A stretch of 64,000 nt of DNA from Alphaproteobacteria bacterium (GTDB lineage: Bacteria > Pseudomonadota > Alphaproteobacteria > CAAHEQ01 > UBA3637): NCBI GenBank assembly GCA_015062245.1, contig SUVA01000006.1:1753-65752 (forward strand). Reading direction: 5' to 3'. The notes beneath the pieces are model-generated. The model had not been told where the DNA came from and ran no database searches. It was given only the letters and a program-made list of their open reading frames with translations. The translations under genes and the position numbers were made by a program. Shown one piece after another: positions 14,263 to 33,314 of the stretch; the stretch's first letter is position 1, and each line of letters opens with the position of its first letter.

Positions 14263-17200
14263 TAAATCAAATTTACAGTGGGGTTCCTGATGGCTATGAA
14301 GCTTTTGTTTTGGTAAAACAGCTTCAAAAGGGGCATGTATTGTATGTGGCCTCGGATGAAAAAAAAGCAATGCGGACTTATGAAACATTGTTGCGTATTT
14401 TTCCAAAAATTCCGGTTTTGTTCTATCCTGCATGGGATACGGTTCCTTATGACAGAACATCACCTTCATCGGATATCGTTGGTAATCAGTTGGATACATT
14501 GATTCAATTACAACGTTTGAAAAAAAACACTGTTGTTATTACCTCGGTGCCGGCTGTTTCTCAATTGATTCCGCCGACTGATGTTTTTTCAAAATCCATT
14601 AAAAAATTGGCTGTTGGTGATAAGGTTGATTTTGATGAATTAAAGTCTTTTTTGGTTCGGTTGGGTTATCAATCCACGGATGTGGTGATGCAGGCGGGTG
14701 ATTTTGCCGTTCGGGGTGAGATTGTGGATATTTTTACACCGGGGCTTTCTTTACCTGTGCGGTTGGATTTTTTTGATGATGAACTGGAAAGCATTCGCTT
14801 TTTTAATCCCACCACGCAAAGAACAACGGATATTTTGAAAGAATTTGAAATAAAGCCGGTACGCTTGTTTGAATTGACCGAAGACAATTGTCATTTATTT
14901 CGTTCACGTTATCGTGAATTATTTGATAATCCTGTTCAGGATATGATTTATCAGGCTGTATCACAAATGCGTTATATGGATGGGATGGAACATTATTTGC
15001 CACTTTTTTATTCCCAAATGGTTTCTTTATTTGATTATTTGCCGAATGCAACCGTTTTTGTGGGGACAACCTTTGAAGAATCCCTTAAAGCACGAGAAGC
15101 TCAGGTCAATGATTATTATCAGGCCAGAAGTCAGTTTCAATCACCCAATGCGCCGGCCTATCATCCGTTACCGCCGGATTTGTTTTTTATCAGTTCGGAT
15201 TCCATGAATCAGTATTTGAAAAAACAAAATGTGATTCGTTTAACACCGTTTCAAAGTGAAAAAAGTAAAAATCAAGGGGCAACACCTTCACGGGATTTTG
15301 TAGATATTCGTGTTCAAAAAGATAAAGATTTGTTTTTGGAAATTGCCGATTATGTGCGTTCTTGTCCCAAAAGGGTGGTTATGACAACTTTAACGGAAGG
15401 GGCGGGGGATCGCTTGGTGGCTTTGTTTAAAGAAAAAGAGCTTGCCTTGAACTTTTCAGATGATTTTAATCAAGCCCTTAAAAAAGCCCCATCTGTGATG
15501 GTGGCCCCTTTTGAAACAGGCTTTCAAACCGAAGATTTACTTGTTTTAACTGAAACGGATATGTTTGGGCAACGCCTGCAATCTTTACCTAAACGCCGTA
15601 AGGCCCAAGATTTTATTGCCGATATTTCCTCTTTATCCAAGGGGGATTTGGTGGTTCATACACTTCACGGCATCGGTCGTTTTGTCGGCTTGGAAACAAT
15701 ACAGGTGGCTGGTGCTGCCCACGATTGTTTGTTGTTGGAATATGCCGAAAATGCCCGTTTATTTGTGCCGGTTGAAAATACGGACGTCCTTTCTCGTTAT
15801 GGCTCAGGTGAGGTGGCATTGGACCGTTTAGGTAATCCTTCGTTTGCCAATCGTAAAGCCAAACTTCAAAAAGACTTAATGCAAATGGCGGATAAGTTGA
15901 TGAAGATTGCGGGTAAGCGTGCCCTACATCAAATGCCAAAAATTTTGGCCCCCCATGGTTTATATCAGGAATTTTGTGCCCGTTTTCCCTATACTGAAAC
16001 AGAAGATCAACTGCGAACAGTTTCGGAAATTGAATCAGATTTATCAATGGGCAAGCCTATGGATCGTTTGGTGTGTGGTGATGTTGGTTTTGGTAAGACG
16101 GAAGTGGCTATGCGGGCGGCCTTTTTGGCTGTTATGGCCGGATATCAGGTGGCTGTGATTGCCCCCACCACATTATTGGCCAGACAGCATACACAAAATT
16201 TTATTCAACGTTTTGATGGTTTTCCTATTCGTATCGCTTCACTTTCCAGATTAGTGTCGGCCCGTCAAAGCAAACAAGTCAAAGACGAATTACAAAAAGG
16301 TTCTTTGGATATTGTTGTGGGGACGCATGCCTTACTTTCAAAAACTTTATCGTTTAAAAATTTAGGGTTGGTGATTGTGGATGAAGAACAACACTTTGGT
16401 GTCAAACATAAAGAACGTTTAAAGGAAATGCAAACAGGCGTTCATGTTTTGACTCTAACAGCCACCCCCATTCCACGCACTTTGCAATTATCGTTGTCGG
16501 GTGTTCGTGATTTATCGGTGATTGCCACACCGCCCGTGGACAGATTGGCCGTTAAAACCTATGTCATGTCCTTTGATCCGGTTGTGATGAAAGAGGCAAT
16601 TTTGCGTGAAAATTTTCGTGGTGGTCAAACCTTTGTCGTGGTTCCCCGAATTTCGGATATGGATGATGTCTATGATGATTTGAAAATACTCTTGCCTGAT
16701 TTGAAAATGGTCAAAGCGCATGGGCAAATGCCCCCCACTCAGTTGGAAAAAATAATGTCTGATTTTACCCAAGGCGATTATGATGTTTTAATTGCCACCA
16801 GTATTATTGAATCCGGTCTTGATTTACCCCGTGTCAATACAATGATAGTCTATCGGGCCGATATGTTTGGTTTGGCCGGTCTTTATCAGTTGCGTGGTCG
16901 GGTCGGGCGAGGCAAACAAAAAGCCTATGCTTATTTGACGACCACGGGAAAATTATCCGAAAATGCCCGTAAACGTTTGGAGGTTATGCAAAAACTGGAT
17001 TCTTTGGGGGCAGGCTTTATGTTGGCCAGCCATGATTTGGATATTCGTGGGGCGGGTAATTTATTGGGTTCAGAACAATCGGGGCATATTCGTGAAATTG
17101 GTGTGGCGCTGTATCAAAAGATGTTGGCCGAAGCCGTTCAATCTTTAAAACACGATAAAACAAAATCGGTGGATATGGATTTTTCACCGCAAATTTCCGT

Positions 17201-17630
17201 TGGATTGCCCGTTTTAATACCGGCCGATTATATCAATGAATTGGATGTGCGGATGGATTTATATCATCGTATGGGTGAAATTCGCACATTGGAAGAAGTA
17301 AATACGATGCGTTCAGAGTTAAAGGACCGTTTTGGTATGTATCCTGTGGAAACGGAAAATCTGTTTTTGACATTGGAATTAAAACTTTTGGCCCGTCAAG
17401 CGCATATCGAACGATTGGATGCGGGTGAAAAGGGTGCAACAATTTCATTCTTTAACAACACTTTCCCGAATCCGGCCGGTTTAGTGGATTATATCAAATC
17501 TCAGGTTGGGACAATGAAAATCCGACCTGATCAAAAAGTGGTGGCCATTCGTTCATGGAAAAATACGGATACCCGATTAAAAGGTATCCGTGATATGATT
17601 CAAAAAATTGCCGAATTGGCCGTTCATTAA
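14259..17630 (+). CDS. mfd: Transcription-repair coupling factor
   Basis: GDVGFGKTEVA, DEEQHFGV, QLRGRVGR, TRCF C-terminus. Confidence 0.97.
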   Translation: MINQIYSGVPDGYEAFVLVKQLQKGHVLYVASDEKKAMRTYETLLRIFPKIPVLFYPAWDTVPYDRTSPSSDIVGNQLDTLIQLQRLKKNTVVITSVPAVSQLIPPTDVFSKSIKKLAVGDKVDFDELKSFLVRLGYQSTDVVMQAGDFAVRGEIVDIFTPGLSLPVRLDFFDDELESIRFFNPTTQRTTDILKEFEIKPVRLFELTEDNCHLFRSRYRELFDNPVQDMIYQAVSQMRYMDGMEHYLPLFYSQMVSLFDYLPNATVFVGTTFEESLKAREAQVNDYYQARSQFQSPNAPAYHPLPPDLFFISSDSMNQYLKKQNVIRLTPFQSEKSKNQGATPSRDFVDIRVQKDKDLFLEIADYVRSCPKRVVMTTLTEGAGDRLVALFKEKELALNFSDDFNQALKKAPSVMVAPFETGFQTEDLLVLTETDMFGQRLQSLPKRRKAQDFIADISSLSKGDLVVHTLHGIGRFVGLETIQVAGAAHDCLLLEYAENARLFVPVENTDVLSRYGSGEVALDRLGNPSFANRKAKLQKDLMQMADKLMKIAGKRALHQMPKILAPHGLYQEFCARFPYTETEDQLRTVSEIESDLSMGKPMDRLVCGDVGFGKTEVAMRAAFLAVMAGYQVAVIAPTTLLARQHTQNFIQRFDGFPIRIASLSRLVSARQSKQVKDELQKGSLDIVVGTHALLSKTLSFKNLGLVIVDEEQHFGVKHKERLKEMQTGVHVLTLTATPIPRTLQLSLSGVRDLSVIATPPVDRLAVKTYVMSFDPVVMKEAILRENFRGGQTFVVVPRISDMDDVYDDLKILLPDLKMVKAHGQMPPTQLEKIMSDFTQGDYDVLIATSIIESGLDLPRVNTMIVYRADMFGLAGLYQLRGRVGRGKQKAYAYLTTTGKLSENARKRLEVMQKLDSLGAGFMLASHDLDIRGAGNLLGSEQSGHIREIGVALYQKMLAEAVQSLKHDKTKSVDMDFSPQISVGLPVLIPADYINELDVRMDLYHRMGEIRTLEEVNTMRSELKDRFGMYPVETENLFLTLELKLLARQAHIERLDAGEKGATISFFNNTFPNPAGLVDYIKSQVGTMKIRPDQKVVAIRSWKNTDTRLKGIRDMIQKIAELAVH

Positions 17631-18812: not shown

Positions 18813-20075
18813 TTATTGATTCATTGAGGTAAAGAAATCGTCATTATTTTTGGTCAGTTTTAATTTTTCCATTAAAAATTCCATAGATTCGGTTACCCCC
18901 ATCGGGATTAAAATACGGCGCAACATCCACATTTTGGGCAGTTTATTTTTATCCACCAACAATTCTTCTTTGCGTGTGCCGGATTTTGTTACATCAATGG
19001 CGGGGAAGATACGTTTGTCGGAAACTTTTCTGTCCAAAACGATTTCGCTGTTTCCCGTTCCTTTGAATTCTTCAAAGATAACTTCGTCCATTCGTGAGCC
19101 TGTATCCACCAAGGCTGTTCCGAAAATGGTCAAAGAACCACCTTCTTCTATATTACGGGCAGCACCGAAAAAGCGTTTGGGTTTTTGCAAGGCATTGGCA
19201 TCCACACCACCGGTTAAAACTTTACCTGAACTGGGCACAACCGTGTTATAGGCCCGTGCTAAACGTGTAATGGAATCCAATAAAATAACCACATCTTTTT
19301 TATGTTCCACCAAGCGTTTTGCCTTTTCAATCACCATTTCGGCCACCTGCACATGGCGTGAGGCCGGTTCGTCAAATGTGGAAGAAATCACTTCACCTTT
19401 GACCGAACGAATCATATCTGTCACTTCTTCGGGGCGTTCGTCAATCAACAGCATAATTAAATGGGCATTGGGATAGTTGGCGCTGATAGCATGGGCAATA
19501 TTTTGCAACATCACGGTTTTACCTGTTCTGGGTGGGGCCACAATCAATGAGCGTTGACCAAAACCCTGCGGACAGATTAAATCCACAATTCGGTCGGTTA
19601 AATCTTTTTTCTTGGTATCGTTTGTTTCGTGTTCCATTTTGATGGGCGTTTCGGGATATAAAGGGGTTAAATCATCAAAGTTGACACGATAGCGCAATTT
19701 TTCCGGATCATCAAAATTGACCTGATTGATTTTGGATAAAGAAAAGTATTTTTCATTATTTTTGGGGGCCAAAATTTCACCGCTGACGGTATCGCCAGTG
19801 CGTAATCCATAACGTTTAATGTGTTGCGGGGCGACATAGATATCATCAGAACCGGCCAAATAATTGGCTTCAGGCGAACGCAAAAAACCAAATCCGTCTT
19901 GCATAACCTGTAAAACACCTTCACCGAATAAAGTCGTTTCGGTTTCGGCCAAGCGTTTTAAAATGGCATACATCATATCTTGGGTGCGTAAACTGGCGGC
20001 GTTTTCGATGCCCAATTCTTCGGCATATTGTAATAATTCGGTGGGTGATTTTTTCTTTAAATCCTGCAATTGCAT
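18813..20075 (-). CDS. rho: Transcription termination factor Rho
   Basis: [36 protein letters not shown]. Confidence 0.98.
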
Positions 20076-20161: not shown

Positions 20162-20249
20162 GAAAATAAATAATCAATTTTCCCGCTTGACAAGGTGTGT
20201 AAATTATGCTAGTGTGGGGATAAGGCATAAGAAAGGAGAGCCGATTACA

Positions 20250-20327
20250 ATGTGTTTAAATTGCGTTAAAGGTCAAAATAAAAGGACTTTGTACACACAC
20301 ACACACACAAGTAGTTTTGCAAATTAA
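20250..20327 (+). CDS. 25-aa leader peptide MCLNCVKGQNKRTLYTHTHTSSFAN
   Basis: AAGGAG SD upstream; same length and frame as the paralogous peptide at 31944. Confidence 0.7.
   Translation: MCLNCVKGQNKRTLYTHTHTSSFAN
20293..20309 (+). repeat. AC dinucleotide tract, 17 nt
   Basis: acacacacacacacaca read directly. Confidence 0.97.
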
Positions 20328-20417
20328 GTTATGCCTTGGCATAATAAACCCACTGTATGATTACAGTGGGTTTAATTGCGTTTAAATAATGTCAAACAAT
20401 TAACAAAGGAGTAAAAA

Positions 20418-20711
20418 ATGGCATTAGCATTCATAACAACAAAACAAACCGCAGAATTTCGAAAGAGGCATGGCATAGACCCAAAAGCAAAGCTTACAGA
20501 GGAACAACGCCAACAATTGTATACCGAAGAAGTTGTAGATAGATATAAAAGGCTTGCTGAAAAATCAACACTGACGCAACGTTTAAGGGCGGCTTCCTTG
20601 GATGGAAAAAATAATGATAGTATGCAAATTAATCAAAATTTAAGAGAATCTGAACAGAAAAACTCTGAAAACACAGCAGTCATGAATAAAATGAAAAGAG
20701 AAGGCCGTTAG
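20418..20711 (+). CDS. Orphan 97-aa protein downstream of leader copy 1
   Basis: AAGGAG SD; ends NKMKREGR; followed by a terminator. Confidence 0.75.
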   Translation: MALAFITTKQTAEFRKRHGIDPKAKLTEEQRQQLYTEEVVDRYKRLAEKSTLTQRLRAASLDGKNNDSMQINQNLRESEQKNSENTAVMNKMKREGR

Positions 20712-20728
20712 AAAAAGACTATAAAATC

Positions 20729-20756
20729 AGCCCTTTGTTTTAAGGGGCTTTTTTTT
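20729..20756 (+). terminator. Intrinsic terminator, probably bidirectional
   Basis: agcccttt-gtttt-aaggggct stem followed by a T run, between convergent genes. Confidence 0.75.
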
Positions 20757-31414: not shown

Positions 31415-31876
31415 ATGGATAAAAAAGATAAAACCTCATTGATGATGTTGGCGGGTGGTGCTGCTGTTGCAGGTGCTACGGTTTTAGCTTCACAGTCATT
31501 AAGCGGACTGGAACTCACAAATGATCTTTTGGAAATTGTTGAGAATGTTTTGAATTTATTGAGAGGAACATCCATGATTGCTTCTGCGATCGGTCTTGCT
31601 CGGATAGGTTTGAAATATGGAACAAAAATGTGGAATTGGTTGAAAGAAAAAATAAGCTATCATTCAAACAATAAGAAAAAAGAATTGGCAAAGACGCATT
31701 CTAAATCTAACGATTCAAAAAGTTCATCAAAAGGACATGTAAAAGAAGGCGAAATGACAGGTATTATGAAAAAGGGTTTTAATCGTGGGGCGGATATAAA
31801 TTTGGCCCAACAATCAAGACCAGTGCAAAAAACGGTATCAAATGCAAAAGTTGTTCAACAACAATCTCAAAGATAA
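31415..31876 (+). CDS. Orphan membrane-associated protein
   Basis: Two hydrophobic segments, Ser/Lys-rich tail ending VVQQQSQR. Confidence 0.6.
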   Translation: MDKKDKTSLMMLAGGAAVAGATVLASQSLSGLELTNDLLEIVENVLNLLRGTSMIASAIGLARIGLKYGTKMWNWLKEKISYHSNNKKKELAKTHSKSNDSKSSSKGHVKEGEMTGIMKKGFNRGADINLAQQSRPVQKTVSNAKVVQQQSQR

Positions 31877-31943
31877 TCGCTTGACAAGTGGTGAAAGGTT
31901 CGCTAGTATGGGGATAAGTAAAGAAAATGGGAGGCTATTTAAA

Positions 31944-32021
31944 ATGTGTTTAAACCACGGTAAAGGTGTAAATAGATGGACCTTGTACACACACACACAC
32001 ACATGTAATTTTGGATATTAA
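31944..32021 (+). CDS. 25-aa leader peptide MCLNHGKGVNRWTLYTHTHTCNFGY
   Basis: GGGAGG SD upstream; same length and frame as the peptide at 20250. Confidence 0.7.
   Translation: MCLNHGKGVNRWTLYTHTHTCNFGY
31987..32003 (+). repeat. AC dinucleotide tract, 17 nt
   Basis: acacacacacacacaca read directly. Confidence 0.97.
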
Positions 32022-32159
32022 GTTGTGCCTTGGCACAACCGACCCACTGTATGTCAAATACGGTGGGTTAAACTGTATTTGTCATTTTGAAATGGGCTCG
32101 CCCATTCAGAATGACAATTTTAATTACTGTCATAACAAATAAAAGAAAGGAGTCAAAAA

Positions 32160-33314
32160 ATGTCAGTAAAAAACAAAACAAACAAAAACGATAAAAGAAG
32201 TCAAAAGGGGCGCAGTATGGTTGAAATGCTGGGGGTGCTTGCCATCGTGGGCGTTTTGTCCGTGGGCGGTGTGTACGGCTATGGTGTCGCCATGAAAAAA
32301 CACAAAGCCAATGAATTATTGCACCAGGCCTCAATGCTGGCCACTACCATATCGGCACAAATCCAAAGTAAAGGTGAATTGCCCCAAAGCATTGAAGATT
32401 TTGGCAATGGTAAATACGGGACATTTAATCCCCCCAGTGAAGCAAATGCTGAACAATTTACCATGCAAATCACAGGTATGGATTCTGCGGTTTGTACCCA
32501 AATGGAAAAGATGGCGAGCGGAATGGTGCGTGAAGCCAAATGTAATGGCACAACATTGACCTTAACCTATAACAACAATTTATCCAGCGACAAAGTCGCC
32601 GCCGATTATAATGGTGATGAAGACGGTTGTAAAGACAGTGGTCGTAAATACTGTTCAGGTTCAAATTCTTGCGTTGCTTTGGATAAGGAATGCGGATGTA
32701 GTGGCACAAATAACGGCTGTCAAAAATGCGATACAGAAACGGGTTCTTTGGTTGCCGATGATGAAAAAGAAGGTGAAAATTGCACCACATCTGATGGTAA
32801 AGCAGGAACATGTAATGATGGCGTGTGTGAGGAAAAAGTGGATTGTCCTAATGGCTTGGATGCGAATGAAGAGGGAAAGTGTATTTGTACAGACCACACA
32901 ACGAATCAATGTGGATTGGGATATTATTGCAAGTTTGTTCCGGATGATGATGCTTGTGGTGATAGCGACCGTGGAGATGGTGTTTGTACAGCCGTTGGCA
33001 GTGGTACTTCCATCAAAGACGGGGCTTATTTAAAGAGTTCTGATCCTATGGATTGGTGGAGTGCATACAGTTGGTGTAAAGGGAACGACATGGATTTGAT
33101 AACGGGGACAATAGACGGCATACCGTTGAACAGTGATTACTTTGATGAGGATAATTATATATTGTATAACTACTTTGGAGAGTATTTTAAATTTTGGACA
33201 GGTTATGAGGATGACCATTCCTGTTACACGTGGTACGCTTACGCTGAGCCTGACCATGAGTGGGTCGGCTCGGACGCCAGTCGCGACTGCGAGTTCTCCG
33301 CTTTGTGTCAGTAG
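32160..33314 (+). CDS. Large type IV pilin-like protein with Cys-rich stalk and putative C-type-lectin-fold tip
   Basis: SQKG|RSMVEMLGVLAIVGVL class III signal; many Cys; DWWSAYSWC...FWTG...SCYTWY...SALCQ tip (fold is inference). Confidence 0.85.
   Translation: MSVKNKTNKNDKRSQKGRSMVEMLGVLAIVGVLSVGGVYGYGVAMKKHKANELLHQASMLATTISAQIQSKGELPQSIEDFGNGKYGTFNPPSEANAEQFTMQITGMDSAVCTQMEKMASGMVREAKCNGTTLTLTYNNNLSSDKVAADYNGDEDGCKDSGRKYCSGSNSCVALDKECGCSGTNNGCQKCDTETGSLVADDEKEGENCTTSDGKAGTCNDGVCEEKVDCPNGLDANEEGKCICTDHTTNQCGLGYYCKFVPDDDACGDSDRGDGVCTAVGSGTSIKDGAYLKSSDPMDWWSAYSWCKGNDMDLITGTIDGIPLNSDYFDEDNYILYNYFGEYFKFWTGYEDDHSCYTWYAYAEPDHEWVGSDASRDCEFSALCQ

What the first reader, a model, noticed from the sequence alone, without database searches (positions are those of the whole stretch)
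31878..32160. Candidate slippage-controlled attenuator: an AC tract inside a leader peptide sets whether the ribosome crosses a terminator
Seen: promoter, SD, then a 25-codon uORF whose THTHT is encoded by a 17-nt AC tract. The stop (32019-32021) lies immediately before hairpin 1 and the terminator-like hairpin 2. Adding one AC unit shifts into a frame that stays open through all hairpins (VILDIKLCLGTTDPLY..., stop 32140-32142, 17 nt before the pilin ATG). Removing one unit gives an immediate stop. Copy 1 has the same three-frame outcome (+1 unit reads VVLQIKLCLGIINPLY... to 20383-20385, past the hairpin; -1 unit stops at once). Established: dinucleotide repeats slip during replication, and translating ribosomes block intrinsic terminators. 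Inference: repeat number mod 3 switches the downstream gene ON in one state and OFF in two, without touching its coding sequence; both copies would be OFF as assembled. Alternative: a Thr/His-sensing or stalling leader.
Basis: partly seen in the sequence, partly recalled or inferred. Interest (0 to 1): 0.92.

Follow-up and report, generated by a model that had tools for sequence, protein, structure and literature searches.

The report
Repeat-driven leader-peptide switch before pilin genes
A slippery AC repeat inside a tiny upstream reading frame changes length between otherwise identical bacteria and decides whether ribosomes read through terminator-like hairpins ahead of pilin-like genes; this on/off trick has been proven so far only in Streptococcus gallolyticus and appears here, independently, in uncultured Alphaproteobacteria.

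Summary
Both leader copies (about 20187-20417 and 31881-32159) carry a promoter, a ribosome-binding site, an ATG uORF, a 17-nt (AC)8A tract, two conserved hairpins (three in copy 2) and the same three-frame layout.

- **Tract length varies.** At the copy-1 locus, contigs from nine samples have 0 mismatches in 1,620 flanking nt, yet the tract is 15 nt in seven samples and 17 nt in two. Across 22 distinct full-length leaders it is 5-21 nt.
- **The layout is conserved.** Every complete leader has a stop at +2 (once +8), a stop at +15 at the foot of hairpin 1, and one frame open past the last hairpin. That frame ends 10-35 nt after the hairpin and usually 12-35 nt before the gene. Long-frame alleles exist in nature, including a third copy in the sample that holds the window's contig.

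The mechanism is not new. GCAGA repeats in a leader peptide upstream of a terminator control the S. gallolyticus pil1 and pil3 pili (Danne 2014, PMC3894217). This is a non-homologous variant of that kind: a dinucleotide repeat, pilin-like cargo and a multi-copy cassette. Termination and ON/OFF output are inferred, not measured, and some relatives lack a U-rich tail.

The parts
31881..31909 (+). Copy 2 promoter: TTGACA, 17-nt spacer, TAGTAT
   Evidence: 10 of 12 consensus matches. Conserved in all aligned leaders.
31929..31934 (+). Copy 2 ribosome-binding site (GGGAGG) of the uORF, 9 nt before the ATG
   Evidence: A GGAG-type site precedes the ATG in every leader.
31944..32021 (+). Copy 2 leader uORF as assembled (25 codons plus TAA): the 'mid' frame, stopping 1 nt before hairpin 1
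31987..32003 (+). Copy 2 (AC)8A tract, the hypermutable element; it encodes THTHT within the uORF
   Evidence: Length polymorphism at this locus and in relatives.
32006..32008 (+). Copy 2 TAA used when the tract is one unit shorter or two units longer (the 'short' frame)
   Evidence: Conserved at +2 in 21 of 22 leaders; one has it at +8.
32022..32039 (+). Copy 2 hairpin 1: 7-bp stem with a free 4-nt loop
   Evidence: -8.3 kcal/mol. Stem conserved, loop has 7 variants, one compensatory pair.
32041..32069 (+). Copy 2 hairpin 2 (about 12 bp); in this copy the tail is weak (UUAAACUG)
   Evidence: -18.6 kcal/mol, z = -4.6. Stem invariant across the family.
32079..32125 (+). Copy 2 hairpin 3 (32079-32117) plus UUUUAAUU tail: the best intrinsic-terminator candidate of this copy
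   Evidence: -20.8 kcal/mol, z = -6.5. Absent from copy 1.
32140..32142 (+). Copy 2 stop of the long frame (reached at 13 or 19 nt of tract), 17 nt before the gene ATG and just 5' of its ribosome-binding site (32146-32152)
32160..33314 (+). Regulated gene: 384-aa type IV pilin-like / pseudopilin-like protein (KGRSMVEMLGVLAIVGVLSVGG N-terminus)
   Evidence: N_methyl match below cutoff; 458 relatives, named 'type II secretion system protein' or PulG by their sources. N-terminal helix, and a weak C-type-lectin-like C-terminal domain.
20187..20215 (+). Copy 1 promoter: TTGACA, 17-nt spacer, TAGTGT
   Evidence: aligned with the copy 2 promoter. Not flagged by the simple scan.
20250..20327 (+). Copy 1 leader uORF as assembled (25 codons plus TAA, 'mid' frame); ribosome-binding site AGGAG at 20234-20238
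20293..20309 (+). Copy 1 (AC)8A tract
   Evidence: It is 15 nt in seven samples and 17 nt in two, with identical flanks.
20328..20345 (+). Copy 1 hairpin 1 (GUUAUGCC/GGCAUAAU), with a compensatory change relative to copy 2
20346..20382 (+). Copy 1 hairpin 2 (20346-20373) plus U-rich tail: terminator-like
   Evidence: flagged: 13 pairs, tail ATTGCGTTTA. (-18.4 kcal/mol, z = -5.6).
20383..20385 (+). Copy 1 stop of the long frame, 32 nt before the gene ATG
20418..20711 (+). Regulated gene of copy 1: 97-aa protein of unknown function, followed by a canonical terminator at 20729-20749
   Evidence: no family match.

Best explanation
Each leader is a self-contained phase-variation cassette. It consists of a constitutive-looking sigma-70 promoter, a translated leader uORF whose codons 16 onward are an (AC)n tract, and then one to several stable hairpins before the ribosome-binding site of the regulated gene.

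Replication slippage changes the tract by 2 nt at a time, which cycles the uORF through three frames.
- With AC units equal to 1 mod 3 (tract 9, 15 or 21 nt), the ribosome stops 2 nt after the tract.
- With units equal to 2 mod 3 (tract 11 or 17 nt, both window copies), it stops at the UAA of AUUAAG, at the foot of hairpin 1.
- With units equal to 0 mod 3 (tract 13 or 19 nt), it reads through hairpins 1 and 2 (and 3) and stops just before the gene's ribosome-binding site.

In the two short states the terminator-like hairpin(s) form behind RNA polymerase, and most transcripts end before the gene (OFF or low). In the long state the ribosome following the polymerase keeps the hairpins melted, so transcription reaches the gene (ON). 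The ribosome is also released next to the gene's ribosome-binding site.

Shown here:
- the tract is hypermutable;
- the three-frame layout, start codon, ribosome-binding site and hairpin stems are conserved;
- all three states occur in nature.

Inferred:
- that the hairpins terminate transcription;
- that the long state is ON;
- that hairpin 1 acts as a pause or synchronising hairpin (speculative).
For: 1. Hypermutability. Contigs from nine samples plus the window have 0 mismatches in 1,620 nt around copy 1. The tract is 15 nt in seven samples and 17 nt in two, and both alleles were recovered by both JGI and ENA/MEGAHIT assemblies. Two GTDB genomes assembled from metagenomes and other contigs show tracts of 5, 9, 11, 13, 15, 17, 19 and 21 nt.
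2. Conserved design. In 22 distinct leaders the stops lie at +2 (one at +8) and at +15. The third frame is open to +73 up to +346, always 10-35 nt beyond the last hairpin. It ends 12-35 nt before the gene ATG in all but one leader (L034, 148 nt). The other two frames carry 1-8 stops in the same stretch.
3. Indels respect the frame. The hairpin 2 loop varies by exactly 3 nt, and the nested insert of L014 is +54 nt.
4. Long-frame alleles exist. 14 protein clusters of 42-134 aa have been called from public assemblies. They include a third locus on a second contig from the sample that holds the window's contig: 13-nt tract, pilin-like gene 16 nt after the uORF stop. L038 carries one long and one short leader.
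5. L034 has a decayed repeat (5 nt) and is fixed in the long frame.
6. Hairpins. The stems are 98% paired and almost invariant while the loops vary freely, and hairpin 1 has one compensatory pair. Stabilities are -18 to -21 kcal/mol, z = -4.6 to -6.5. Copy 1 hairpin 2 is flagged as terminator-like. Copy 2 hairpin 3 is followed by UUUUAAUU.
7. The ribosome-binding site of the regulated gene is unpaired in the minimum-energy folds. This argues for control before translation initiation.
8. Experimental precedent for exactly this logic exists in S. gallolyticus pil1 and pil3 (PMC3894217).
9. The cargo is mostly a large, fast-diverging family of surface pilin-like proteins, which is typical of phase-variable genes.
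Against: - There are no expression, 3'-end or reporter data. ON/OFF assignment and termination are inferred.
- U-tails are imperfect. Copy 2 hairpin 2 is followed by UUAAAC. L026 has lost the tail of hairpin 3 through an 11-nt deletion. Leaders with nested inserts end in AAAAGGUAAUUAC.
- The openness of the long frame is only modestly improbable for a single leader (P = 0.015-0.29 in shuffles), and the leaders are related rather than independent.
- Covariation is thin: one compensatory pair, because the stems hardly vary.
- Slippage between identical flanks was seen only between the two 'short' states (15 and 17 nt). No single locus was caught in both long and short states with identical flanks, and the last look-ups ended in contig breaks.
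- Many of the samples may come from related enrichment series, so the sample count may overstate independence.
- The role of the conserved hairpin 1 is unexplained by the simple model.
Confidence: 0.64

Rival explanations
1. The same repeat-driven uORF switch operates, but the output is not set by intrinsic termination. One possibility is that long-frame translation protects a long untranslated structured leader from Rho (classical polarity). Another is that it acts at the level of translation, by unfolding the leader and releasing ribosomes next to the gene's ribosome-binding site (termination-reinitiation or coupling).
For: The long-frame stop lies 12-20 nt before the gene ATG, directly 5' of its ribosome-binding site, in all leaders that carry hairpin 3. 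Several family members lack a U-rich tail after their last hairpin. The genome encodes Rho (window 18813-20075). Stochastic Rho-dependent switches are known for fim and flgB (PMC12360218).
Against: The gene's ribosome-binding site is not sequestered in the predicted folds. The leader is highly structured and short (75-190 nt untranslated), which makes it a poor substrate for Rho loading. In copy-1-type leaders the stop is 24-35 nt from the ATG, and in L034 it is 148 nt away. Hairpin 2 of copy 1 and hairpin 3 of copy 2 do look like intrinsic terminators.
Confidence: 0.2
2. Tract length acts through RNA structure or a trans-acting factor rather than through the reading frame. Examples would be length-dependent RNase III processing or small-RNA or protein binding to the (AC)n stretch, as in H. 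influenzae hmw1A or H. pylori tlpB/RepG.
For: Repeats in 5' leaders are known to work this way (PMC12721329; PMC8295292). The leader has long perfect stems that could serve as RNase III substrates.
Against: No conserved pairing partner for the AC tract exists. The AUGUGU-ACACAU pairing in the minimum-energy folds is lost in leaders that start ATGAAT, ATGGAT or ATGGCT. The window holds no GU-rich complement. This model does not explain the conserved ATG and ribosome-binding site, the two conserved early stops, the stop-free third frame, or the 3-nt indels.
Confidence: 0.05
3. The tract is a neutral microsatellite in a 5' UTR. It is polymorphic but has no regulatory consequence, and the frame pattern is a coincidence inherited from a common ancestor.
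For: All leaders are related by descent. Openness of the long frame is only modestly improbable for each one. There are no functional data.
Against: The tract is kept at 4-10 units in about 20 leaders that have diverged by about 20%, and it sits in front of different genes. The long frame stays open through independent insertions of 54 nt (an unbiased case) and up to 270 nt. The loop indel is exactly 3 nt. The leader with a decayed repeat sits in the long frame.
Confidence: 0.05
4. The long-frame product (44-134 aa) is itself a functional, phase-variable small protein, and the hairpins are incidental.
For: Gene callers annotate it. It has several conserved Cys residues and a conserved N-terminal half.
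Against: Conservation follows the RNA stems, not the codons. The hairpin loops change amino acids freely (CLG, CAS, CER, CVS, CEC). The C-terminal part is replaced by unrelated palindromic modules of variable number. The product has no family match. The N-terminal 15 codons show changes mostly at codon positions 1 and 2.
Confidence: 0.04
5. The leader is a physiological attenuator that senses Thr or His supply, or is a stalling leader.
For: The tract is read as alternating Thr (ACA) and His (CAC) codons in every state.
Against: The number of such codons varies from about 2 to 7 between alleles. The cargo is pilin-like and other non-biosynthetic proteins. A ribosome stalled in the tract sits at least 20 nt upstream of hairpin 1, and there is no conserved antiterminator alternative. 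An alternative pairing at 32055-32081 exists only in copy-2-type leaders.
Confidence: 0.02

Closest known systems
Streptococcus gallolyticus pil1 / pil3 phase variation by GCAGA repeats in a leader peptide upstream of a terminator (Danne et al. 2014, PMC3894217)
   Same: A simple sequence repeat sits inside a short translated leader ORF. Slippage changes the frame and so the position of the leader's stop relative to a stem-loop. Short peptides leave the terminator intact (low expression). Peptides that end in or after the hairpin give high expression. The cargo is a pilus. More than one locus per genome uses the device.
   Different: There is no sequence relationship. The repeat is a dinucleotide (AC)4-10 rather than the pentanucleotide (GCAGA)13-23. 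The host is a Gram-negative, uncultured alphaproteobacterium rather than a Firmicute. The cargo is type IV pilin-like / pseudopilin-like proteins and also non-pilin genes, rather than a sortase pilus operon. Here only 1 of 3 frames reads through, and both early stops are conserved. There is an extra conserved hairpin 1 at the mid-frame stop, 1-3 or more hairpins, and nested in-frame palindromic inserts. The cassette includes its own promoter and occurs at 3-4 or more loci per genome. Nothing here has been tested experimentally.
Ribosome-mediated transcription attenuation (E. coli trp, his, and especially pyrBI, where the leader ORF runs through the attenuator)
   Same: A leader peptide is translated behind RNA polymerase, and the ribosome's position decides whether a terminator hairpin forms. 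As in pyrBI, the leader ORF overlaps the terminator itself. This comparison rests on established knowledge and the discussion in PMC3894217.
   Different: The signal here is genetic and heritable (repeat length), not metabolic (charged tRNA or UTP). There is no conserved antiterminator/terminator alternative pair, and the cargo is not biosynthetic.
Phase variation by conditional termination in a leader through DNA inversion (C. difficile cwpV and flgB, E. coli fim)
   Same: A stochastic, heritable change in the leader DNA switches premature termination on or off downstream of a constant promoter (PMC12360218; cwpV from my own knowledge).
   Different: Those switches use site-specific recombinases and inverted repeats. 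None are present here. The switch here is slippage of a repeat read by the ribosome.
Repeats in transcribed 5' leaders acting through RNA structure or small RNAs (H. influenzae hmw1A ATCTTTC repeats with RNase III, PMC12721329; H. pylori tlpB G-repeat with RepG, PMC8295292)
   Same: A hypermutable repeat lies in the 5' leader, not in the promoter spacer or the regulated coding sequence. Control acts after transcription initiation on a surface or adhesin gene.
   Different: Those systems respond to absolute repeat length through pairing or processing, and the repeat is not translated. Here the repeat is inside a uORF, and the conserved features are reading-frame features.
Classical repeat-driven phase variation in coding sequences or promoter spacers (Neisseria opa and pilC, Haemophilus lic and hif, Campylobacter poly-G)
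   Same: Slipped-strand mispairing of a short repeat, three-frame logic, and surface-protein cargo.
   Different: The tract lies 77 nt downstream of the -10 box and 156 nt upstream of the regulated ATG. It therefore alters neither promoter spacing nor the regulated protein.

Membership tests
Repeat-in-leader-peptide attenuation switch (S. gallolyticus pil1/pil3 type; a mechanistic class, not a homologous family) | A repeat whose unit length is not a multiple of 3 lies inside a short ORF that has its own ribosome-binding site and start codon, upstream of the regulated gene | tested here: met
   (AC)n starts at codon 16 of an ATG uORF preceded by GGAG-type sites in all 22 leaders.
Repeat-in-leader-peptide attenuation switch (S. 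gallolyticus pil1/pil3 type; a mechanistic class, not a homologous family) | Repeat number is polymorphic within or between closely related populations | tested here: met
   15 versus 17 nt with 0 of 1,620 flank mismatches across nine samples; 5-21 nt across the family.
Repeat-in-leader-peptide attenuation switch (S. gallolyticus pil1/pil3 type; a mechanistic class, not a homologous family) | A stem-loop terminator lies between the short-form stop and the gene, and the long forms stop within or beyond it | tested here: met
   This is geometry only. Short stops lie at +2 and +15. The long stop is 10-35 nt past the last hairpin, or inside its 3' arm in one partial leader. Hairpins are -18 to -21 kcal/mol. 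Copy 1 hairpin 2 is flagged as terminator-like.
Repeat-in-leader-peptide attenuation switch (S. gallolyticus pil1/pil3 type; a mechanistic class, not a homologous family) | The hairpin actually terminates transcription, and deleting it locks expression ON | not testable with these tools
   Needs Term-seq, in vitro transcription or reporters. U-tails are good in some leaders and poor in others.
Repeat-in-leader-peptide attenuation switch (S. gallolyticus pil1/pil3 type; a mechanistic class, not a homologous family) | Regulation depends on translation of the leader (start-codon and stop-codon mutants) | not testable with these tools
   Only indirect support: a conserved ATG and ribosome-binding site, and frame-preserving indels.
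Classical amino-acid attenuator (trp/his type) | Mutually exclusive antiterminator and terminator structures, and regulatory codons that match the cargo pathway | tested here: not met
   No conserved alternative pairing exists; one is present only in copy-2-type leaders at 32055-32081. The cargo is pilin-like or unknown proteins.
Promoter-spacer or in-gene repeat phase variation | The repeat lies between the -35 and -10 boxes, or inside the regulated coding sequence | tested here: not met
   The tract at 31987-32003 lies after the -10 box (31904-31909) and before the pilin ATG (32160).
Any curated RNA family (Rfam 15) | Covariance-model match at or near the gathering score | tested here: not met
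   The window holds only two tRNAs at gathering threshold. There is no hit with E <= 1 in 31850-32200.
Type IV pilin / T2SS pseudopilin (the regulated gene 32160-33314) | Class III signal peptide: G followed by x4 and E at +5, then a hydrophobic helix (Pfam N_methyl / TIGR02532) | tested here: inconclusive
   The motif KG|RSMVEMLGVLAIVGVLSVGG is visible and invariant in 47 homologs. However, N_methyl scores 15.7 bits against a cutoff of 21.2, and TIGR02532 scores 12.9 against 16.3. The model has a long N-terminal helix. The only pilin structural hit is weak: PilW, E = 0.22. Sources name relatives 'type II secretion system protein' or PulG.

The most novel reading that the evidence does not exclude
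The cassette may be more than a binary copy of the streptococcal switch. It could be a three-output device in which the conserved hairpin 1, placed exactly at the mid-frame stop, acts as a pause or synchronising element. If so, the 'short', 'mid' and 'long' states would give distinct expression levels.

The cassette also appears to behave as a portable promoter-plus-switch module. It recombines between loci, drives one-at-a-time expression from a very large pilin-like repertoire as well as non-pilin genes, and tolerates nested palindromic elements only when they keep the leader frame open.
Probability: 0.2. Interest if true: 0.7.

Novelty: new variant of a known kind. Interest (0 to 1): 0.55.

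Why it matters
Repeat-in-leader-peptide attenuation came up in the literature searches run here as a single experimentally characterised system, in one Gram-positive species. Finding an unrelated, well-conserved, multi-copy version in uncultured Alphaproteobacteria suggests the device evolves convergently and is under-reported.

- Standard phase-variation scans look for repeats in coding sequences and promoter spacers, so they would miss it.
- It explains why small 'hypothetical proteins' appear and disappear between assemblies.
- It may explain why contigs break upstream of these pilin genes.
- It provides a compact cassette of about 230 nt that can be tested directly in reporters.
- It points to stochastic, combinatorial expression of a large pilin-like, possibly lectin-tipped, surface repertoire in an unstudied lineage.

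Tried and rejected
- Two metagenome contigs pattern scans returned nothing although JGI contigs carry the element, so the collection evidently lacks these samples. A viral-contig scan was also empty.
- Rfam found no family at gathering threshold or at a permissive E-value.
- Covariation analysis gave little, because the stems are nearly invariant: one compensatory pair, and shuffle controls only weakly exceeded.
- PDB sequence searches for both cargo proteins gave nothing useful. The fold search gave only weak C-type-lectin-like and PilW hits, none with E <= 0.001.
- An attempt to catch the third locus in a non-long state failed. The only near-identical pilin contig starts 48 nt before the gene.
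- An early automatic uORF-start guess picked an out-of-frame internal ATG. It was replaced by the fixed ATG 39 nt before TTGT.
- A search for sample or genome accessions in papers found nothing.
- Rejected explanations: Thr/His sensing, a functional long peptide, pairing of the AC tract with the start-codon region (not conserved), and a rut-like role for (AC)n (it has no YC dimers, judged from my own knowledge).
Full report
**1. Observation**

Copy 2:
- Promoter TTGACA (31881-31886), 17-nt spacer, TAGTAT (31904-31909).
- Ribosome-binding site GGGAGG at 31929-31934.
- A 25-codon uORF starting at ATG 31944 and ending at TAA 32019-32021.
- A 17-nt (AC)8A tract at 31987-32003, which encodes THTHT.
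- Hairpin 1 at 32022-32039 (-8.3 kcal/mol), hairpin 2 at 32041-32069 (-18.6) and hairpin 3 at 32079-32117 (-20.8), the last followed by UUUUAAUU.
- The gene's ribosome-binding site at 32146-32152 and its ATG at 32160.

One more AC unit opens a frame that runs to TAA 32140-32142. One unit fewer gives TAA at 32006-32008.

Copy 1 (promoter 20187-20215, ATG 20250, tract 20293-20309) has the same three outcomes. It lacks hairpin 3.

The two leaders are 81% identical in alignment. They form the longest direct repeat in the window. The tract motif occurs twice against 0 expected. Both leaders fold far better than shuffled sequence. No Rfam family matches.

**2. The tract is hypermutable**

Exact-protein look-ups of the flanking genes recovered the same loci from many public assemblies.
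- At the copy-1 locus, contigs from nine samples and the window are identical at all 1,620 flanking positions examined. The tract is 15 nt in seven samples and 17 nt in two. Both alleles were recovered by both JGI and MEGAHIT-type assemblies.
- At the copy-2 locus, 17-nt and 15-nt alleles also occur, along with one allele whose last unit is mutated to AT. These alleles sit on leaders that also differ elsewhere.
- A pattern scan of GTDB representative genomes found six more leaders in two genomes assembled from metagenomes and labelled 'Alphaproteobacteria bacterium'. Their tracts are 9, 11, 13, 17, 19 and 21 nt.

In total I collected 22 distinct full-length leaders with tracts of 5-21 nt.

**3. 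The three-frame layout is conserved**

Every leader has the following:
- the ATG 39 nt before TTGT(AC)n;
- a GGAG-type ribosome-binding site;
- a stop 2 nt after the tract (one leader has it at +8);
- a stop at +15, the TAA of ATTAAG, 1 nt before hairpin 1.

The third frame has no stop until 10-35 nt beyond the last hairpin, in all 18 leaders that can be read that far. That stop is 12-35 nt before the regulated ATG in all but one leader (L034, 148 nt).

The state follows the number of AC units modulo 3: a remainder of 0 gives the long frame, 1 the short frame and 2 the mid frame.

In the same stretch the other two frames carry 1-8 stops. Shuffles leave the long frame open with P = 0.015-0.29 per leader. 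That is modest for any single leader, and the leaders are related. However, the frame survives independent indels:
- the hairpin 2 loop differs by exactly 3 nt;
- hairpin 3 is present in some leaders and absent in others;
- L014 carries a further 54-nt nested insert.

One partial leader (the ends of L039 and L042) has a 1-nt insertion. Its long frame stops at a TGA inside the 3' arm of hairpin 3. This is still compatible with ribosome-mediated melting.

**4. All three states occur in nature**

A profile of the hypothetical long peptides found 14 protein clusters of 42-134 aa that gene callers had predicted in public assemblies.
- One cluster (P0012) lies on at least 13 contigs. One of these is a 68-kb contig from the same sample as the contig that matches the window. 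There the leader has a 13-nt tract, and a pilin-like gene starts 16 nt after the uORF stop. If that contig belongs to the window's organism, that genome has one leader in the long state and two (the window's) in the mid state.
- Leaders found without selecting for the long ORF are in long, mid or short states at roughly 3: 7: 7.
- L034, whose repeat has decayed to ACACA, is fixed in the long frame.

**5. Hairpins**

Across 15 aligned leaders, 98% of stem positions pair. The stems are almost invariant, while the 4-nt loop of hairpin 1 has seven variants and the loop of hairpin 2 varies in sequence and length. There is one compensatory G-C to A-U pair.

Evidence that the hairpins are terminators:
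- Copy 1 hairpin 2 is flagged as terminator-like.
- Copy 2 hairpin 3 is followed by UUUUAAUU.

Evidence against a purely intrinsic-termination model:
- Copy 2 hairpin 2 has a poor tail.
- L026 has lost the tail of hairpin 3.
- Leaders with nested inserts end in AAAAGGUAAUUAC.

The ribosome-binding site of the regulated gene is unpaired in the predicted folds.

**6. Cargo**

The copy-2 gene encodes a 384-aa protein with a prepilin-like N-terminus (KG|RSMVEMLGVLAIVGVLSVGG).
- Pfam N_methyl and TIGR02532 match, but below their cutoffs.
- It has 458 relatives at E <= 1e-5. They are highly diverged, and their sources name them 'type II secretion system protein' or PulG.
- An AlphaFold model (pLDDT 79) shows a long N-terminal helix and a confident C-terminal domain. 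That domain resembles C-type lectin-like folds only weakly, with a best E of 0.02.

Copy 1 drives a 97-aa protein with no family match. Other leaders drive further non-pilin genes.

**7. Mechanism**

The best-supported reading is a slippage-driven, three-state leader-peptide switch. Only the long frame lets a ribosome follow RNA polymerase through the hairpins. This prevents premature termination and releases the ribosome next to the gene's ribosome-binding site.

The hypermutability, the conserved frame design and the natural occurrence of all three states are shown. Termination and the ON assignment are inferred.

Rivals, in order of weight:
1. The same switch, read out by Rho polarity or by translational coupling.
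2. Length-dependent RNA structure, RNase III processing or small-RNA targeting.
3. A neutral microsatellite.
4. A functional long peptide.
5. Thr/His sensing.

**8. Comparison with known systems**

A full-text search found the direct precedent. In S. gallolyticus, GCAGA repeats in a leader-peptide gene set the position of the peptide's stop relative to a stem-loop terminator. This gives Pil1-low or Pil1-high cells. It was verified with start-codon, stop-codon and terminator-deletion mutants, and the same arrangement is seen at pil3 (PMC3894217).

The present element matches every sequence-level feature of that class. It is unrelated in sequence and differs in several ways:
- the repeat unit;
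- the phylum;
- the type of pilus;
- the number of read-through frames (1 of 3);
- the extra hairpin 1;
- its multi-copy, portable nature.

Other relatives in logic are:
- pyrBI-type attenuation;
- inversion-controlled termination switches (PMC12360218);
- repeats in 5' leaders acting through RNase III or small RNAs (PMC12721329; PMC8295292).

It is not a promoter-spacer or in-gene repeat switch, and it is not an amino-acid attenuator.

**9. Verdict**

Its novelty is that of a new variant of a known but rare kind. It is still notable as an apparently undescribed Gram-negative, pilin-like, multi-copy instance with population-level evidence of switching.

Noticed in passing
L014 (downstream of hairpin 2); L044 1985-2272; L045 51-455; similar element in L038 about 17200-17300: Nested palindromic multi-hairpin inserts sit inside the leader. 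Their termini are GTCATTC...GAATGAC, and their inner modules include TCTCGGA-CTTGA-TCCGAGA and TCTTCGTG-CTTGA-CACGAAGA. They lengthen the long uORF to as much as 134 aa without closing it. A similar element lies in the N-terminal coding region of a 601-aa pilin-like gene. This in-frame behaviour recalls Rickettsia palindromic elements (from my own knowledge).
   Followed up: partly
L036 9682-10000; L039 9702-10000: Other pilin paralogs (P0020, P0120) have different structured leaders of about 300 nt, without an AC tract. These end in a canonical hairpin-plus-U-run terminator directly before the ribosome-binding site, which suggests a second, unknown conditional-termination leader. The only Rfam hit is a sub-threshold sRNA-Xcc1 match (32 bits against a gathering score of 53) at L037 1775-1868.
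   Followed up: partly
window 20418-20711; L026 (gene after the leader); L045 468-593: The cassette also drives non-pilin genes. These include a 97-aa protein with no family match, a protein beginning MKDKIENLEKK..., and one beginning MTEKLKPIVEYYDNGKVKR....
   Followed up: no
L035 versus L028; L014 versus window 31878-33314; contig ends in L017, L020, L021, L039, L042, L046: Leaders are mosaic. The same 5' half is joined to different 3' halves, pilin alleles and downstream genes, which suggests cassette exchange by recombination at the leaders. Many contigs break inside the leader.
   Followed up: partly
window 31963-31984 (alignment A3 columns 82-86 with 99-103): There may be a small hairpin inside the uORF just 5' of the tract (AAGGU/ACCUU). 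It is 100% paired in 15 leaders, and its three variable positions change only to G-U pairs. Its significance is unknown.
   Followed up: partly
window 32055-32081: The scan flags an alternative stem (CAAATACGGT/ACTGTATTTG, tail TCATTTTG). It competes with the 3' arm of hairpin 2. It is present only in copy-2-type leaders.
   Followed up: no
window 31976-31978: An out-of-frame internal ATG (AGATGGACC) lies 7 nt before TTGT in some leaders. It has no ribosome-binding site and is not conserved (absent in copy 1, L013, L026 and L028). If it were used, it would shift which tract lengths read through.
   Followed up: partly
window 18813-20075 (minus strand), promoter 20161-20133: The rho gene lies divergently next to leader copy 1. 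It has a perfect TTGACA-17-TATAAT promoter.
   Followed up: no
window 32160-33314 (about residues 190-384): The confidently modelled Cys-rich C-terminal domain of the pilin-like protein weakly resembles C-type lectin-like domains (best hits: Bd2740 C-terminal domain, E = 0.02; BDCA2, CLEC12A). This hints at an adhesin function.
   Followed up: partly
L039 about 14720-14853 and L042 5400-5532 (minus strand): One leader variant has a 1-nt insertion in hairpin 3 (CCCATCTCAGAATGAC). Its long frame therefore stops at a TGA inside the 3' arm of hairpin 3, rather than after the hairpin.
   Followed up: yes
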